Below, one piece after another: positions 32,066-42,154 of a stretch of 64,000 bases of DNA. Origin of the DNA: Escherichia phage SelmaRatti. The first letter of the stretch is position 1, and every line of letters starts with the position of its first letter. Both the position numbers and the translations under genes were made by a program. The stretch lies in the sequence record MZ501103; one strand, written 5' to 3'. Under the pieces are notes generated by a model that did no database searches, was not told the DNA's origin, and saw only the letters and a list, made by a program, of their open reading frames with translations.

Positions 32066-32767
32066 ATGAAAGTAAAACCATTTGGTATGCTAGATATTGA
32101 ATCTCTAGGAACTCCAGGAGATTGTGGTACTACTCATATTGTAATGCCTTCTTTCGCTTTTGTGGCTATGCACGGAATTGATAAAGATCCTGGTCTAGTG
32201 TTTGTTACTTTAGATGTACAAGATCAGCTTAATTCTGGAGCTAAAGTTACGGCATCTACTCTAGCATTCTGGATGGATCAAGCTAAACATAGCCCGTCTG
32301 CTGTCCACATTATGGAAGCTATGAAGGAACGTAATCCAAAACTGATTGCCTTCCAAAATGGTAAACATTATTGCACTAATAAATTAGGCTCAAACTATGC
32401 TGCCTTCTCTATGGCTAAAAACATTATGGAATCGGCTCTAGGAGAGAATGCTCTATACTACGGCAATGGCCCGGAGTTTGATATGACTATCTACTCTGCA
32501 AATACGTTCCACGCGGGAACTCACGAAGAGGTAGTTCCGTGGAAATTCTGGAACTTAGGTAATGTTCGATCTATACGCAATCTTTGGATGCAGGCTGGCT
32601 ATAGTTATAAAGATCTAGAAGCCGAAGGTATTAGCTGGGCAATAGCTAAAATGGAGAAGATGGACACCATTCGTTATGGGATCTATCCGGTTAAGCATGA
32701 TCCAGCATTCGATGCCTTAGTTGAGAGCTATTGTATTGCAGCTATGATCGAAAAAATGAAAATTTGA
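32066..32767 (+). CDS. DEDDh-type 3'-5' exonuclease-like protein
   Basis: N-terminal MLDIESLG (Exo I D-x-E) and C-terminal HDPAFDAL (Exo III H-x4-D). Confidence 0.45.
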   Translation: MKVKPFGMLDIESLGTPGDCGTTHIVMPSFAFVAMHGIDKDPGLVFVTLDVQDQLNSGAKVTASTLAFWMDQAKHSPSAVHIMEAMKERNPKLIAFQNGKHYCTNKLGSNYAAFSMAKNIMESALGENALYYGNGPEFDMTIYSANTFHAGTHEEVVPWKFWNLGNVRSIRNLWMQAGYSYKDLEAEGISWAIAKMEKMDTIRYGIYPVKHDPAFDALVESYCIAAMIEKMKI

Positions 32768-33037: not shown

Positions 33038-33090
33038 TAAACCAAGTTTAAACAAATTCAAATCTCAAATTTCATATAAGGAAGCAAATA

Positions 33091-33729
33091 ATGACTACTA
33101 GTATTTCTAAAACTCGCGCTCTGGCAACTATCAAATCTCTGGAAGCTAAAATCCGTAAAGCTACTGAACAACAGCTTCTGATCGCTGTTGGTGAAGGTAA
33201 GGATAAAAATAAGGTTGTAGTTGGCGCTGCAATCGAAGTAGACGATCTGTCTGCTCGTATTAAGACTGATTTCCAGTCTCTGCTGGATATGATGTCCCAG
33301 CGTGATCGTATCAAAGCTGCTCTGATTAAAAGCAATGCTGAAACAATCGTTGAGATTGGCTCTCGTAAGATGACTGTTGCGGAAGCAATTGAAGCTAAGC
33401 GTTCTATGGAACTTAAAGCCCAACTGCTGGATAACATGCGTAAGCAGTTCCATGCCGCTACGGTTAAGTTTAATACGCAGAAAGCACAGTTTGATGCTAA
33501 ATATGAGCGTTTGCAGGATAGCATGGCTACCCGCGATAAGAAAACTTCCGAAGATGAAGTTAAAATGCAGCTCAACCTGCTGGAACTCAAGAATACTCCA
33601 TTCTTGATTGACCCGCTGGAACTGGAAAAGCTGATTAAGCAGCACGACGAGGAATACCAGGACTTTGCAACAAATGTTGACTTTGTTCTGTCCGAGTCTA
33701 ACGCCTCTACCTTTATTGAAGTAGAGTAA
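33091..33729 (+). CDS. hypothetical coiled-coil protein (212 aa)
   Basis: RBS aaggaag; overlapping minus-strand ORFs have implausible composition. Confidence 0.5.
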   Translation: MTTSISKTRALATIKSLEAKIRKATEQQLLIAVGEGKDKNKVVVGAAIEVDDLSARIKTDFQSLLDMMSQRDRIKAALIKSNAETIVEIGSRKMTVAEAIEAKRSMELKAQLLDNMRKQFHAATVKFNTQKAQFDAKYERLQDSMATRDKKTSEDEVKMQLNLLELKNTPFLIDPLELEKLIKQHDEEYQDFATNVDFVLSESNASTFIEVE

Positions 33730-34112
33730 TAATTTAAAAGCTAGTAAATCGGTAGACGAAAGCCCAAGCATCTTACCTCGCAGCAGCGGTTGAAATACGA
33801 GGTTAAATAAGACCGCTGACCATACTATAAAGTATAATCTATTGGAGATTATGTTTATTACATCAGACACTTAATCTGACACGTAAAAACAAAGCGTCGT
33901 TGATATTACCGACACAACTTCAAAGATCAACATTTAAGTATGAAAGCTGAAAAGTTTAAAGAACTCAAACTTCTAAACTTCTAAAGCTAAAAGATGCAAA
34001 GTATTCGTTGATGATTCAAACCCTAGATCAAAGGTACATGGCTCGTAAGATATGGCCTGTGGCGCCTCTAGGCTGTTTATCGGTTTACTAGTTTCACAAT
34101 TTAAAAATGTAT

Positions 34113-34141
34113 TTGCTAATCTACTAAATTATATGTATAAT
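34113..34141 (+). promoter_or_regulatory. sigma70-type early promoter (HNH gene)
   Basis: TTGCTA-17-TATAAT. Confidence 0.55.
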
Positions 34142-34171
34142 ATATTTTTAAATTGATGAAACGAGGCTATT

Positions 34172-34993
34172 ATGGGTAAATTACAAAAACAAATACTACC
34201 ATATATAGATTATATTCGAGAAATTATAAAATATAATCCTTATACCGGTAAATTATTTTATAAGCCTAATAAATACAAGAATAAAACTTGGCACACCCTA
34301 TATGCTGGGAGAGAAATATGTAGTAAGAACTCTAATGGGTACATCAGAGTTAGCTTGCTCTTAGGTAATAAACCCACAATTATTTATGGGCACCGAATAG
34401 CGTGGTTGCTCCATTATGGTGAAGAGCCACCTGATATGATCGACCATATAAATACCATACCGTGGGATAACAGAATTCTTAATCTAAGAGAGACAAATTT
34501 TAAGTTAAATAGGATTAATACTGATAAAACCGTAGGTGTAGAACTCCTCTCCGAGGGTTTTGTGTATAGCATTACATTAGGTGGAAAGTTTTTCGTATCT
34601 CCTGGCTTCACCACTTTCGAACAAGCTAAAGGGGAAAGAGAAAAACTAGTAAATGGTTTATGTAATGCAGAAATTGGGAAGCAGACCAATATTCTAATAG
34701 ACGATGTTAGAGATCTACCTGAAATGTCCATTATTTGTCGTACAGTTATAGGTGCGCTGGAACTATCAGATATGTTTAGTTTCACAGGATCCTATTTATT
34801 TATGGACTCAGATTTAGGGGATCCAGAGGTACAAGGAAAAGATTTATTAGATCATATACTATTTTTAGGTCAAAGACCACTAAAAGTGGTTCTAGTAACA
34901 TCTAATCCTGTTGACGCAGAGTACATGAGAGGAACCCTTACGTCTTATGGATACCGAGAAAATCCCAATAGATTAGAATATGATCTATTTTAA
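34172..34993 (+). CDS. HNH homing endonuclease (AP2/HNH_3-like)
   Basis: GYIRVSL...HRIAWLLHYGEEPPDMIDHINTIPWDNRILNLRETN. Confidence 0.7.
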   Translation: MGKLQKQILPYIDYIREIIKYNPYTGKLFYKPNKYKNKTWHTLYAGREICSKNSNGYIRVSLLLGNKPTIIYGHRIAWLLHYGEEPPDMIDHINTIPWDNRILNLRETNFKLNRINTDKTVGVELLSEGFVYSITLGGKFFVSPGFTTFEQAKGEREKLVNGLCNAEIGKQTNILIDDVRDLPEMSIICRTVIGALELSDMFSFTGSYLFMDSDLGDPEVQGKDLLDHILFLGQRPLKVVLVTSNPVDAEYMRGTLTSYGYRENPNRLEYDLF

Positions 34994-35466: not shown

Positions 35467-36156
35467 ATGAAAAAATTAACACAGGAAGAAGTAGAGAGTT
35501 ACCTAGTTAGTAGAGGCTTATTCACTAATGATAAGTATACTAATACTAGGACTAAAATGCAGTTCTGTTGCACCTATGGACATGTTTTTAATGCTACCCT
35601 AAATAATATTAGGAACGGAAGAGGTTGTCCCTACTGCTATGGAAATGTTAGGTACACTCAAGAACAAGTATCTGAATATTTGCGTAGTTTAGGATATTAC
35701 ACCATTACCAAATATATAAATAATAACTCTAAGCTACAACTTACTTGTAGTAAGGGGCATGTATGGATTACCACTTTTAGTGCCATAAAAAATATGGGTA
35801 ATAGATGCCCTGAGTGCTCCAATATATGGAGCGATGGTGGGATACTTTATATAATAACTAGTTCATTAGGTACAAAAATAGGAATTACTAATTCTCCTGC
35901 TCGTAGGTTAAGGGATTTGATTACTGCATCCGGGGATCCCACAGCTAAGTATTATGGTCATTATACATATGGTAGCTCTTCTAAATCAGAAACCCTTGCT
36001 TTAGAGAAGAAGGCACATATGTATTTTAAAAGTCATAATTGTGGTTATAGTGGATTTGCTGGATCTACTGAATACTTTAATATTTCCACCGAAGAGGCAG
36101 AAGAATTCCTCTTGAAAGAGGGGGCCACAATAGTACAGAAAGAGGGTGGTTTATGA
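35467..36156 (+). CDS. zinc-ribbon repeat + T5orf172/GIY-YIG-like domain protein (homing-endonuclease-like)
   Basis: FCCTYGHVF...CPYC, LTCSKGHVW...CPEC, then LYIITSSLGTKIGITNSPARRL. Confidence 0.6.
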   Translation: MKKLTQEEVESYLVSRGLFTNDKYTNTRTKMQFCCTYGHVFNATLNNIRNGRGCPYCYGNVRYTQEQVSEYLRSLGYYTITKYINNNSKLQLTCSKGHVWITTFSAIKNMGNRCPECSNIWSDGGILYIITSSLGTKIGITNSPARRLRDLITASGDPTAKYYGHYTYGSSSKSETLALEKKAHMYFKSHNCGYSGFAGSTEYFNISTEEAEEFLLKEGATIVQKEGGL

Positions 36157-36323
36157 AGAACTTGATCGTCATTGGTGTTAATACTCGCGGTATTCGTACT
36201 ACGAAAACTGTTAAAACTTCCAACGTTGCTGAGATCACTACGAACCCTAAGAAGTTTGATTTCGCTAAAGTCTCGGCAGTTATGACAGAACAATCTTTTA
36301 ACCAAGCACTGGGAATTAAATAA
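36153..36323 (+). CDS. small hypothetical protein (56 aa)
   Basis: ATG overlaps previous stop; stop overlaps next start (TAATG). Confidence 0.3.
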   Translation: MKNLIVIGVNTRGIRTTKTVKTSNVAEITTNPKKFDFAKVSAVMTEQSFNQALGIK

Positions 36324-36766
36324 TGGAAGAGAATATTCTAGATGTTTTGCGTAGGGCTTTGCAGGGATCTAAGGTTGATGGTTCTGATAAAGAAGTAGCT
36401 AAAAGCTACCAGACCATAATCGGAGATCTTCAGCGTGTTGATAAAGACTTCATTACTTCTGAACAGTTTGTATCTTATCTAAAAGCTCAACTGAAAAGCA
36501 TTAATCAGACGAAAGCTAAACTTCACGGTCAAGACCTTGATAATTATAGCTTGCAGTCTGCTCAGTATGAATATATACTGAACAAATGGTTACAGCAGTA
36601 TTTGCCACCTCAGTTATCTGATTCTGAGATTCGCAAATACTTTGCAGAATTAGTTAAGTTGAACCCTGGGATTACAAAAGGTATGCTGATGAAAGCGATT
36701 AAGGAAGAATTTCCTGGGCGTTATGATGGTGGTACTGCTGCTCAGATTGCTGGCGAATTTAATTAA
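36323..36766 (+). CDS. GatB/YqeY-domain protein
   Basis: QQYLPPQLSDSEI and C-terminal G..DGG.A.QIA match the YqeY pattern. Confidence 0.55.
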   Translation: MEENILDVLRRALQGSKVDGSDKEVAKSYQTIIGDLQRVDKDFITSEQFVSYLKAQLKSINQTKAKLHGQDLDNYSLQSAQYEYILNKWLQQYLPPQLSDSEIRKYFAELVKLNPGITKGMLMKAIKEEFPGRYDGGTAAQIAGEFN

Positions 36767-36818: not shown

Positions 36819-37455
36819 AGAGTAATTCTTCTCTAATTTATTAAATAGTGGGGTGTGGAAATCACTTATGTAGTAACACTGCCGTCCTAGTATAATTGGT
36901 ATTATCAAGCCGTAACTGGTGGAAGATGTAGGTTCGAATCCTACGGTCGGTAAGAACTGGATAACTGATGCTTTTAACGTAAAAGCTTCCGAGGTTAGTT
37001 GCGCACTGCCTAAACCACGCGGTAGTTGGTTCCAGACTAACCAACCAGTCTGCTGAATAGTTTTATTACGATTTAACTATGTCCAGGCTAAAGAAGAACT
37101 TTAGAAGGTATTTCTAGGGTAGTGAAGTTCTTTCTCCATATCGGAGTAGTTTTTCAGGCTATCCACAAAGTGGGAAATGCTGACATGAGAGATGTCACTA
37201 ATGGTGCACAATAGCACAGGTAATTCGCGATAACTCCTGTTGAGTAGCAGCAAAAGGCGGGAAGTCATGACCCCAAGCCTAACCGAGTCCTCAATATACC
37301 GCAGGACATAACCACTAAGTCACCCTGACTTAAACTGGAAAATAATAGACGTTACCGTATTTTGTCTTGAAATACTTAATGAGTGAGACTTATGACTCTC
37401 CCGGTATCGTCTGTATTTTTAAGAGTTTTTACGAGAGTTCTTAAAAATACTTAAA

Positions 37456-40596: not shown

Positions 40597-40680
40597 AGGG
40601 TCGTTAGCCAAGTGGTTTGGCGGCGGATTGTTAATCCGTGTCGAAAGACAACGTAGGTTCGATTCCTGCACCCGCTGCCA
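40597..40680 (+). tRNA. tRNA-like gene, candidate Asn (GTT); acceptor stem imperfect
   Basis: D-arm, anticodon arm gcgga-ttgttaa-tccgt, T-arm and CCA fold well, but acceptor pairs only 4/7 and an extra gtc-gaaa-gac hairpin sits in the variable region. Confidence 0.35.
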
Positions 40681-42059: not shown

Positions 42060-42154
42060 GGTAGGTCAATCCAACGGCTGGCGATGGACTCCGACTTGAA
42101 ATCGGTTGATCGTAGTGATACGGTGTAAGGGTTCGATCCCCTTACCTACCTCCA
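42060..42154 (+). tRNA. tRNA-Ser (anticodon TGA), type II
   Basis: Acceptor ggtaggt/acctacc perfect, anticodon loop cttgaaa, variable hairpin cgta-gtga-tacg, T-arm aaggg-ttcgatc-ccctt, CCA. Confidence 0.65.

What the first reader, a model, noticed from the sequence alone, without database searches (positions are those of the whole stretch)
33730..34171. 440-nt ORF-free region upstream of an HNH endonuclease gene
The region contains nested complementary segments (cctcg...cgagg; cagcggt...accgctg at about 33790-33830) before the HNH promoter. It may be a structured RNA or the remnant of an intron or insertion associated with the endonuclease.
Basis: seen in the sequence. Interest (0 to 1): 0.4.

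Follow-up and report, generated by a model that had tools for sequence, protein, structure and literature searches.

The report
Unrecognised large structured RNA in T5
The "empty" 440 bases in this T5-like phage encode a roughly 357-nucleotide, intricately folded RNA that always sits just after one particular small protein gene in hundreds of phages and many bacteria, matches no catalogued RNA family, and has no known function.

Summary
The window is a T5-like phage (Tequintavirus). The ORF-free stretch 33730-34171 is real.

The region is not a by-product of the HNH gene. T5-like phages without the HNH domain carry it at 98-99% identity.

Positions 33738-34094 (+) form a ~357-nt structured RNA with these parts:
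- a 21-bp closing helix
- the pseudoknot
- variable hairpins
- an A-rich array of 7-nt NUYAAAG units
- a conserved 3' hairpin domain ending in GGCUG

The last ~70 nt (34098-34165) are an ordinary T5 early promoter.

Homologous RNAs lie directly downstream, on the same strand, of a gene for a ~210-aa helical protein (T5.085 family, DIP1984-like fold, no Pfam family). This held in 58/58 phage-side sources (the window itself plus 57 fetched loci) and 77/80 bacterial loci. In the reverse test, 19/19 RNAs found by DNA pattern had the protein gene upstream. Helices covary extensively.

Rfam 15, ARAGORN and the literature searches found no known counterpart.

Best reading: a new structured RNA class, co-transcribed with its partner protein and probably forming an RNP with it. 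Its function is unknown.

The parts
33091..33729 (+). Partner protein gene (T5.085 homolog, 212 aa; helical, DIP1984-like fold; invariant motif KMTVAEAI)
33738..34094 (+). Whole structured RNA (~357 nt), from the 5' arm to the 3' arm of closing helix P1
   Evidence: MFE z = -4.6. Homologs at the same place in 58/58 phage-side sources and 77/80 bacterial loci. The 3' boundary is marked by the homing-endonuclease insertion in phage 8sent65 after 34093/4.
33738..33758 (+). P1 5' arm (pairs with 34074-34094; 21 bp including 5 G-U)
   Evidence: I1. 12 of 14 P1 pairs show double-sided changes in alignment A4. About 60 GU/UG cells against 1 AC/CA cell in P1.
33757..33763 (+). Conserved junction motif CGAAAGC (family consensus CGAAAAC). 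Its C and G close P1 by pairing with the U and G of GGCUG.
   Evidence: columns 20/206 CG in 26 of 28; columns 21/205 GU in 27 of 28.
33768..33774 (+). P2 5' strand (gcatctt), pairing with 33991-33997 (aagatgc); tentative long-range helix enclosing the pseudoknot and the middle domain
   Evidence: I15. Conserved in 6 T5-subfamily RNAs with one compensatory change. Not separable from chance across the wider family.
33775..33818 (+). H-type pseudoknot. S1 is 33775-33780 with 33798-33803; S2 is 33784-33790 with 33812-33818.
   Evidence: Covariation: S1 ACCUCG/CGAGGU becomes ACCUCU/AGAGGU in L129; S2 CAGCGGU/ACCGCUG becomes UAGCGGC/GCCGCUA in L128 and L129 and UAGGG/CCCUA in L130.
33834..33852 (+). 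Hairpin H1 (ataatct / agattat)
   Evidence: I18. An equivalent hairpin with a different sequence is present in L128 and L129.
33863..33879 (+). Variable hairpin H2 (tcaga / tctga)
   Evidence: Compensatory A33867C plus T33875G in 16 of 28 T5-like sequences.
33899..33913 (+). Variable hairpin H3 (guug / cgac)
   Evidence: The linked changes A33903G and G33911A in 4 T5-like sequences improve or keep pairing.
33917..33998 (+). A-rich heptad array (units NUYAAAG: UUCAAAG, UUUAAAG, GCUAAAG and similar). In T5 it partly folds on itself (33952-33958 / 33974-33980).
   Evidence: Across 46 RNAs, AAAG-to-AAAG spacing of 7 nt occurs 42 times (0.8 expected), 14 nt 23 times and 21 nt 8 times. I19.
33990..34079 (+). 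Conserved 3' domain: motif UCAAACCC (family consensus UAAAAUCC); P6 34022-34026/34068-34072; P7 34032-34035/34064-34067; P8 34040-34042/34055-34057; GGCUG 34071-34075
   Evidence: Covariance model R1 hits here at E = 9e-7 and nowhere else in the window. P6 is 98.9% paired in 57 sequences and 4 of its 5 pairs covary. P7 covaries within the T5 subfamily: AGGU/GCCU, AGGU/ACCU, UAGU/GCUA, CAGU/GCUG.
34074..34094 (+). P1 3' arm
34113..34141 (+). T5 early sigma-70 promoter of the downstream gene (TTGCTA-17-TATAAT). Not part of the RNA.
   Evidence: Repeated at other early promoters in the window. Annotated as a promoter in T5 and AKFV33.
34172..34993 (+). Downstream gene: HNH_3 domain fused to a cREC_REC domain (T5.084 homolog). 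Not functionally tied to the RNA.
   Evidence: HNH-less versions start at the same coordinate in T5 and VAH1.

Best explanation
Positions 33738-34094 (+) are the gene for a ~357-nt, highly structured non-coding RNA belonging to a large family that has not been catalogued.

Shown:
- Architecture. A long closing helix P1 joins the 5' and 3' ends. Next come the conserved junction strand CGAAAAC, an H-type pseudoknot, variable hairpins, an A-rich array of 7-nt NUYAAAG units, and a 3' hairpin domain (UAAAAUCC-P6-P7-P8-GGCUG) that stacks back onto P1.
- Strand. The structure is specific to the + strand.
- Selection. In T5-like phages it is under stronger purifying selection than the neighbouring coding sequence.
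- Linkage. It is found essentially only immediately downstream of the T5.085-family gene (~210 aa, DIP1984-like helical fold). This holds in T5-like and many other tRNA-rich phages, and also as a stand-alone two-part cassette in Bacillales chromosomes.

Inferred:
- Only 5-60 nt separate the protein's stop codon from P1 (8 nt in this window), so the RNA is made as the 3' extension of the protein's early mRNA. No transcript data were available.
- It is then freed by cleavage around P1 (an RNase III-like substrate), by a terminator, or by RNase P cleavage where a tRNA follows within 6-10 nt.
- It assembles with the protein encoded on the same transcript into a ribonucleoprotein.
- The heptad array offers about 6-11 evenly spaced single-stranded sites. 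These would act as a multivalent binding platform or sponge for the partner protein or for a host RNA-binding factor or RNA.

The cellular target and the benefit to the phage are unknown. The module sits among phage tRNA and RNA-repair-type genes, which points to RNA metabolism or to countering RNA-directed host defence.

The confidence of 0.6 is for the whole statement including the RNP model. For the existence of the structured RNA alone I would put it at about 0.95.
For: Identity of the window:
- T5-like phage.
- The RNA region is present at 89-99% identity in 436 phage records, with or without the HNH domain.

Selection: 33721-33840 is 99-100% identical in 28 T5-like sequences, against 89-98% in the adjacent CDS.

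Structure:
- MFE z = -4.6.
- 12 of 14 P1 pairs have double-sided changes.
- P6 is 98.9% paired and 4 of its 5 pairs covary. Covariation score is 0.53 against 0.18 in shuffles (0 of 500 reach it) and at most 0.16 when partners are slid.
- The pseudoknot recurs at the same position with different sequences.
- Compensatory changes occur inside T5-likes.

Strand: about 60 G-U against 1 A-C in P1, and every model hit is on the protein's strand.

Linkage:
- 58/58 phage-side sources and 77/80 bacterial loci chosen by the protein carry exactly one (in one locus, two) RNA 3' domain just downstream.
- 19/19 RNAs found by a DNA pattern alone have the protein gene upstream on the same strand.

Boundaries and processing:
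- A homing endonuclease in phage 8sent65 is inserted exactly at the RNA/promoter boundary and leaves the RNA intact.
- In L096 and L115 a tRNA starts 6-10 nt after the RNA. In L043/L117 a hairpin followed by a U-run follows it, seen by eye and not checked with the terminator scan.

Heptad periodicity: spacing of 7 nt occurs 42 times against 0.8 expected.

No known family: Rfam at gathering and E-value thresholds on the window and on 24 related loci, plus ARAGORN.
Against: - No transcript, processing or binding data were available. Expression, the ends of the RNA and the RNP are inferred from sequence alone.
- The protein has no recognised RNA-binding domain, and its closest solved fold (3KDQ) has no known function.
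- Tight linkage could reflect cis-regulation of the protein gene rather than a complex.
- P2, P7, P8 and the fold of the middle domain are only partly supported.
- In some Bacillales loci my simple search did not find a clean P1.
- The Bacillales chromosomal cassettes lie in non-phage contexts, so a purely phage anti-defence role is not established.
- The literature library searched lacks most subscription journals, so a prior description cannot be excluded.
Confidence: 0.6

Rival explanations
1. Cis-acting 3'-UTR element. The structure acts only on its own transcript, for example by stabilising or processing the T5.085 mRNA, feeding back on its translation, or modifying the transcribing RNA polymerase. 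It would have no independent trans function.
For: The RNA always abuts the stop codon of the same gene on the same strand, and there is no room for a promoter of its own. P1 resembles a processing stem.
Against: A conserved length of 270-430 nt with a pseudoknot, a multi-helix junction and a periodic array is far more than known stabilisers or operators need. The 5' domain is more conserved than the coding sequence. The genes downstream differ completely between lineages, which argues against a read-through or antitermination role.
Confidence: 0.15
2. Toxin-antitoxin-like or addiction or defence cassette. The helical protein and the repeat-bearing RNA would neutralise each other, analogous to type III toxin-antitoxin systems.
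For: In Bacillales chromosomes the module is a stand-alone two-part cassette in variable, non-phage neighbourhoods, once next to an AbiEii-like gene. The RNA has short repeats and a pseudoknot. The module is mobile across phages and bacteria.
Against: - The gene order is reversed relative to ToxIN-type loci (protein first).
- The repeats are 7 nt, not about 36 nt; TRF finds only an 8-nt x 2.4 array.
- The protein is an all-helical DIP1984-like fold, not a ToxN/AbiQ RNase.
- No PADLOC model matches.
- The cassette is an early gene of virulent phages.
Confidence: 0.1
3. DNA-level element. The AT-rich repeats and long inverted repeat would be a replication origin or single-strand initiation site, or simply a promoter/terminator spacer, rather than an RNA.
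For: The region is AT-rich (33% GC against 39% for the window), has short direct repeats and a long inverted repeat, and lies next to strong promoters.
Against: - Pairing is strand-specific, with about 60 G-U against 1 A-C.
- An H-type pseudoknot and a multi-helix fold are kept by compensatory changes.
- The same element occurs in bacterial chromosomes between ordinary genes.
- Only the last ~70 nt behave as a promoter, and only that part is repeated elsewhere.
- The terminator scan finds none in the region.
Confidence: 0.03
4. Relic of a mobile intron or of the homing-endonuclease insertion.
For: Two endonuclease ORFs lie just downstream (34172-34993 and 35467-36156). T5-like phages are rich in homing endonucleases.
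Against: - The region is unchanged in phages that lack these endonucleases.
- No intron family is detected.
- No split host gene flanks it.
- The RNA co-varies and co-occurs with the upstream gene across phyla.
Confidence: 0.01

Closest known systems
GOLLD (RF01998) and ROOL (RF03087): large ornate RNAs of phages and prophages
   Same: Large (several hundred nt), multi-helix, pseudoknotted RNAs of unknown function. They are carried by phages and prophages, often beside tRNA clusters, and were found by covariation.
   Different: No sequence or structure match (Rfam cmscan negative). This RNA is smaller (270-430 nt). It has a 7-nt periodic A-rich array. Unlike GOLLD and ROOL, which form RNA-only assemblies (PMC12286853), it is tied one-to-one to a specific protein gene.
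HEARO/omega-RNA with IscB, and right-end RNA with TnpB
   Same: A structured RNA of a few hundred nt encoded directly next to, or as the 3' extension of, the gene for its protein partner. Adjacency was the clue to an RNP. This comparison rests on my own knowledge, not on a tool result.
   Different: The partner here is a small all-helical protein with no nuclease domain. There is no transposon-end context, no guide-like variable segment was identified, and there is no Rfam match.
skipping-rope RNA (RF02924)
   Same: A phage-associated structured RNA of unknown function. It occurs within a few hundred nt of this module in several loci: L041/L042/L107, L045 and L132.
   Different: It is an 80-nt motif with an unrelated sequence and structure, and it is absent from the window.
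DIP1984-family protein (PDB 3KDQ), for the partner protein
   Different: 12% identity and no NCBIfam or Pfam match. The phage protein is about 60 residues longer. Neither protein has a known function.
Type III toxin-antitoxin RNAs (ToxI and relatives)
   Same: A repeat-containing, pseudoknot-forming RNA paired with one protein in a compact mobile cassette.
   Different: Repeat length (7 nt against about 36 nt), gene order and protein fold all differ.

Membership tests
   Rfam 15 cmscan at gathering threshold on the whole window, and at E <= 10 on 33600-34300, finds no intron family.
   The region lies between two complete genes. It is present at 98-99% identity in HNH-free T5, VAH1 and AKFV33.
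GOLLD / ROOL / other catalogued large bacterial or phage RNAs | Score at or near the Rfam family threshold | tested here: not met
   No hits in the RNA region of the window or of 24 related loci, even at E <= 1-10.
tmRNA | tRNA-like domain with an acceptor stem, a tag reading frame, detection by ARAGORN or Rfam | tested here: not met
   ARAGORN finds only tRNAs elsewhere in the window. Rfam is negative. The only small ORF (33940-33984) is not conserved.
RNase P RNA | Match to the RNase P covariance models (P4 core, CR-I/CR-V) | tested here: not met
   No Rfam RNase P hit at E <= 10. A superficial resemblance of the GGCUG...UAUCGG tail to the M1 RNA 3' end is a recollection only.
Intrinsic terminator / simple promoter spacer | GC-rich hairpin plus U-run after the upstream gene; otherwise no conserved structure | tested here: not met
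   No terminator-like site in 33730-34171. Only 34098-34165 behaves as a promoter. The rest is a conserved, covarying structure.
Type III toxin-antitoxin | Tandem ~34-45-nt RNA repeats upstream of a ToxN/AbiQ-fold endoribonuclease gene | tested here: not met
   TRF finds only an 8-nt x 2.4 array. The RNA lies downstream of the gene. The protein fold is helical and DIP1984-like. No PADLOC match.
DIP1984 family (partner protein) | Sequence match to the family model | tested here: not met
   No NCBIfam or Pfam hit. The PDB sequence search does not recover 3KDQ.
DIP1984 family (partner protein) | Shared three-dimensional fold | tested here: met
New RNA family proposed here ('T5.085-associated RNA') | P1 closed by C-G/G-U next to CGAAAAC and GGCUG; 3' domain UAAAAUCC-P6...GGCUG; position directly 3' of a T5.085-family gene | tested here: met
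   Window hit of model R1 at 33990-34079, E = 9e-7. P1 and the motifs are seen. The gene is at 33091-33729.
New RNA family proposed here ('T5.085-associated RNA') | The RNA is expressed, stable and bound by the protein | not testable with these tools
   No transcriptome or interaction data are accessible.

The most novel reading that the evidence does not exclude
The RNA and the T5.085-family protein form a previously unknown, widespread ribonucleoprotein of phages and Bacillota. Its 7-nt periodic A-rich array acts as a multivalent decoy or scaffold for a host RNA or RNA-binding factor, for example tRNA anticodon loops or an RNA-targeting defence nuclease. That would add a new class of RNA-based host takeover or counter-defence to the model phage T5.
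Probability: 0.3. Interest if true: 0.9.

Novelty: categorically new. Interest (0 to 1): 0.82.

Why it matters
T5 has been a model phage for seventy years, yet this large, strongly conserved RNA has gone unannotated. Annotators left the region empty or placed spurious ORFs and the label 'tail fiber protein' on it.

The RNA defines a family that spans hundreds of sequenced phages: T5-like, and Pseudomonas, Vibrio, Bacillus, Klebsiella, Erwinia and Lactococcus phages. It also occurs in many Bacillales genomes. It is always paired with one uncharacterised protein family of more than 3,000 sequence clusters.

Large structured RNAs with dedicated protein partners have repeatedly turned out to be new molecular machines; omega-RNA with IscB and OLE are examples.

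This case is directly testable in a tractable system (T5 with E. coli, or Lysinibacillus and Bacillus). It also corrects the annotation of a whole gene family.

Tried and rejected
- Intron or insertion remnant. Rejected by comparison with HNH-free phages and by the negative Rfam result.
- Hidden protein gene. The 34-aa and 14-codon ORFs are not conserved. The 270-aa antisense ORF (T5p083 in AY692264) overlaps the real gene.
- Repeat of another part of the genome. Only the promoter part (34098-34165) recurs in the window.
- tRNA pseudogene or tmRNA. ARAGORN and Rfam are negative.
- RNase P-like or Y-RNA-like RNA. A recalled resemblance only, with no model hit.
- Family-wide test of helix P2. 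It cannot be separated from chance in AU-rich sequence; 2 of 23 reach p <= 0.05. P2 is therefore kept as tentative.
- P1 search in Bacillales loci with a rigid anchor. It found clean helices in only 30 of 79. Homology there rests on model R1.
- Pseudoknot covariation with the count of structure pairs. MAFFT could not keep the stems in register, so I relied on shuffle tests and on the T5-subfamily alignment.
- Function from the protein. Pfam, NCBIfam, PADLOC and PDB sequence searches were empty. BFVD returned only uncharacterised phage homologs. The afdb50 library was unavailable.
- Literature. Seven searches found no description of this RNA or of T5.085. The anti-retron protein Rad of T5-like phages is a different gene.
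- Idea that UUCAAAG is complementary to tRNA-Gln or tRNA-Lys anticodon loops. Untested speculation from memory.

Full report

The window is a T5-like phage (Tequintavirus). The 2.5 kb around the finding matches 442 phage records at 80-99% identity.

Positions 33730-34171 lie between the stop codon of a 212-aa ORF (33091-33729) and the start of a 273-aa ORF (34172-34993). Three ORFs touch the interval, and none looks like a gene:
- a 34-aa ORF over the promoter
- a 270-aa antisense GTG ORF that mainly overlaps the upstream gene (annotated T5p083 in one T5 record)
- a 14-codon ORF (33940-33984) whose ATG is lost in relatives

They are acctcg 33775-33780 with cgaggt 33798-33803, and cagcggt 33784-33790 with accgctg 33812-33818 (I10 and I17). 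They are interleaved, not nested, so they form an H-type pseudoknot.

A strong T5 early promoter, TTGCTA-17-TATAAT, lies at 34113-34141. This ~70-nt promoter segment is the only part of the interval repeated elsewhere in the window.

**Not a by-product of the endonuclease**

The downstream ORF is an HNH_3 domain fused to a cREC_REC domain. In T5, VAH1 and AKFV33 the gene at the same start coordinate is only 318 nt, consisting of cREC alone. Yet the 442-nt interval is 98-99% identical in those phages. It covers at least 80% of the query in 436 records.

Rfam finds no intron or other family here, either at gathering threshold or at E <= 10.

**A conserved structured RNA**

I fetched loci encoding relatives of the UPSTREAM protein, at 29-45% identity. 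Each has an ORF-poor gap of 370-1,200 nt after the gene. The gaps share one architecture with the window:

- **P1, the closing helix.** A 5' arm lying 5-60 nt after the stop codon pairs with a 3' arm that immediately follows an invariant GGCUG. In the window this is 33738-33758 with 34074-34094, 21 bp.
- **Junction strand.** The sequence is CGAAAAC. Its C and G pair with the U and G of GGCUG.
- **The pseudoknot.**
- **Variable hairpins.**
- **An A-rich run of NUYAAAG units.**
- **A 3' domain.** Its layout is UAAAAUCC-P6-P7-P8-GGCUG.

Evidence for each element:
- P1: 12 of 14 pairs show double-sided changes in a 28-sequence alignment, for example CG 11, GC 8, UA 6, AU 2 at one pair.
- P6: 98.9% paired in 57 distinct sequences, and 4 of its 5 pairs covary. 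The covariation score is 0.53, against 0.18 in shuffles (0 of 500 reach it) and at most 0.16 with slid partners.
- Pseudoknot: it recurs at the same position with different sequences. About 24 of 46 RNAs beat all 20 of their own shuffles. Within the T5 subfamily both stems covary.
- Whole RNA: it folds with z = -4.6.
- Strand: P1 holds about 60 G-U cells against 1 A-C cell, and all model hits are on the protein's strand. The structure therefore belongs to the + strand transcript, not to duplex DNA.

P2 (33768-33774 with 33991-33997), P7 and P8 are supported in the T5 subfamily but only partly across the family.

**Selection within T5-like phages**

In 28 distinct sequences, 33721-33840 is 99-100% identical. 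The adjacent coding sequence is 89-98% identical.

Variation clusters in two small hairpins and includes compensatory changes:
- A33867C together with T33875G
- A33903G together with G33911A

In phage 8sent65 a homing-endonuclease ORF is inserted exactly after 34093/4. That position lies between the RNA's 3' arm and the promoter, and the insertion leaves both intact.

**Linkage to the protein**

I built a covariance model of the 3' domain (R1).

- Protein to RNA, phage side: R1 finds exactly one hit, on the + strand and just downstream of the gene, in 58 of 58 sources (the window plus 57 fetched loci). There is no other hit in 367 kb. The window hit is at 33990-34079, E = 9e-7.
- Protein to RNA, bacterial genomes: R1 hits 77 of 80 loci chosen by the protein.
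- RNA to protein: a DNA pattern drawn from the RNA alone retrieved 19 R1-positive viral loci. All 19 have the protein gene directly upstream on the same strand.

Distribution of the protein:
- It has 3,217 cluster representatives.
- It occurs in 736 phage records: T5-like, and Pseudomonas, Vibrio, Bacillus, Klebsiella, Erwinia, Lactococcus and Xanthomonas phages.

Context differs by host. In phages the module usually sits in tRNA clusters. In Bacillales chromosomes it is a stand-alone cassette among unrelated housekeeping genes.

**The protein**

It has no Pfam, NCBIfam or PADLOC family. The PHROG label 'tail fiber protein' is doubtful.

**The heptad array**

Across 46 RNAs, the spacing between successive AAAG motifs is:

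| Spacing | Observed | Expected |
|---|---|---|
| 7 nt | 42 | 0.8 |
| 14 nt | 23 | 0.9 |
| 21 nt | 8 | 0.4 |

The motifs are concentrated at 40-80% of RNA length. The window has 11 AAAG motifs. In T5 part of the array pairs with a downstream CUUCUAAACUU segment (I19).

**How it most likely works**

Shown: the structure, its strand, the purifying selection on it, and a one-to-one genomic coupling with the protein gene.

Inferred:
- Only a few nucleotides separate the stop codon from P1, so the RNA must be transcribed as the 3' extension of the protein's early mRNA.
- It is probably released at P1, at a terminator (a hairpin followed by a U-run seen by eye in L043/L117), or by RNase P where a tRNA follows within 6-10 nt (L096, L115).
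- It then assembles with the protein made from the same transcript.
- The heptad array would serve as a multivalent binding platform.

The target is unknown.

Rivals and their estimated probabilities:
- purely cis-acting 3'-UTR element: about 0.15
- TA-like cassette: about 0.10
- DNA-level element: about 0.03
- intron or endonuclease relic: about 0.01

**Comparison with what is known, and verdict**

Nothing in Rfam 15 matches the window or 24 related loci, and ARAGORN finds nothing here. Seven literature searches found no description.

In ecology and scale the RNA resembles GOLLD and ROOL. In its tie to an adjacent protein gene it resembles HEARO/omega-RNA. It is a member of neither.

I judge it a new class of structured RNA with a dedicated protein partner. 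The existence of the RNA carries high confidence (about 0.95). The RNP model carries moderate confidence (about 0.55-0.6). Any specific function carries low confidence.

Noticed in passing
window 34172-34993: The 'HNH endonuclease' ORF is an in-frame fusion of an HNH_3 domain (about aa 11-163) to a cREC_REC (cyclic-phosphate processing receiver) domain. The cREC part is only 52% identical to T5.084 of VAH1, although the flanking DNA is about 98% identical. HildyBeyeler annotates the HNH part as an intein, but the junctions (MG|KLQ... and ...GKQT|NILIDD) lack intein splice residues.
   Followed up: partly
window 35467-36156: A 229-aa T5orf172/GIY-YIG-like endonuclease ORF lies between the SleB-like hydrolase gene and the next small gene. 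Shivani, VAH1 and T5 have no gene there, so it is probably a free-standing homing-endonuclease insertion.
   Followed up: partly
window 33058-33870 (- strand): A 270-aa antisense GTG ORF covers the T5.085 gene and the 5' domain of the RNA. It is annotated as T5p083 in AY692264, in place of the + strand gene, and is probably a spurious call.
   Followed up: partly
window 33091-33729: The T5.085 family is labelled 'tail fiber protein' (PHROG 1491) in many phage records. Its early-region location, its DIP1984-like helical fold and its presence in Bacillales chromosomes make that label doubtful.
   Followed up: partly
L041/L042/L107 2142-2729; L045 98-176; L132 3516-3644: Skipping-rope RNA (RF02924) lies within a few hundred nt of the protein-RNA module in several unrelated phages and prophages. 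This suggests a recurrent neighbourhood of structured RNAs.
   Followed up: no
L127 (Salmonella phage 8sent65) 1576-2070; equivalent to window 34094/34095: A homing-endonuclease ORF is inserted exactly between the 3' end of the RNA and the early promoter. The promoter is regenerated downstream of the insert.
   Followed up: yes
window 34088-34165: The early promoter region is a near-palindrome (17-nt arms, 94% complementary; I2 and I3). One T5 record annotates divergent promoters here. The minus-strand copy lacks a good -35 element.
   Followed up: partly
L145, L139, L172, L209, L201 (Bacillales chromosomes): In Lysinibacillus, Solibacillus, Brevibacillus, Sporosarcina and Bacillus the protein-RNA pair sits as an isolated cassette. 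Its neighbours are unrelated genes: MFS transporter, RlmCD-like methyltransferase, aldehyde dehydrogenase, S-layer protein, ABC transporter, TetR, GNAT. In L172 an AbiEii-like gene lies next to it.
   Followed up: partly
L093, L097, L101, L105, L108, L114: A divergent RNA subtype replaces the pseudoknot region with GCGAAGAGCAAAUUGACCGUGGCAAC...GUUGC. Its 3' hairpin loop carries GUCAAAUCC, which may form a UUGAC/GUCAA long-range contact.
   Followed up: no
window 36881-36952, 40598-40674, 42060-42154: The tRNA callers disagree. Rfam reports tRNAs at 36881-36952 and 40598-40674 that ARAGORN does not call. ARAGORN reports tRNA-Ser(tga) at 42060-42154, which is absent from the Rfam list.
   Followed up: no
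window 32066-32767 and 36323-36766: The neighbourhood contains an Rv2179c-like 3'-5' exoribonuclease and a YqeY-like protein. Together with cREC and the tRNA cluster, they form an RNA-metabolism island conserved in the T5 subfamily (L129, L131).
   Followed up: partly
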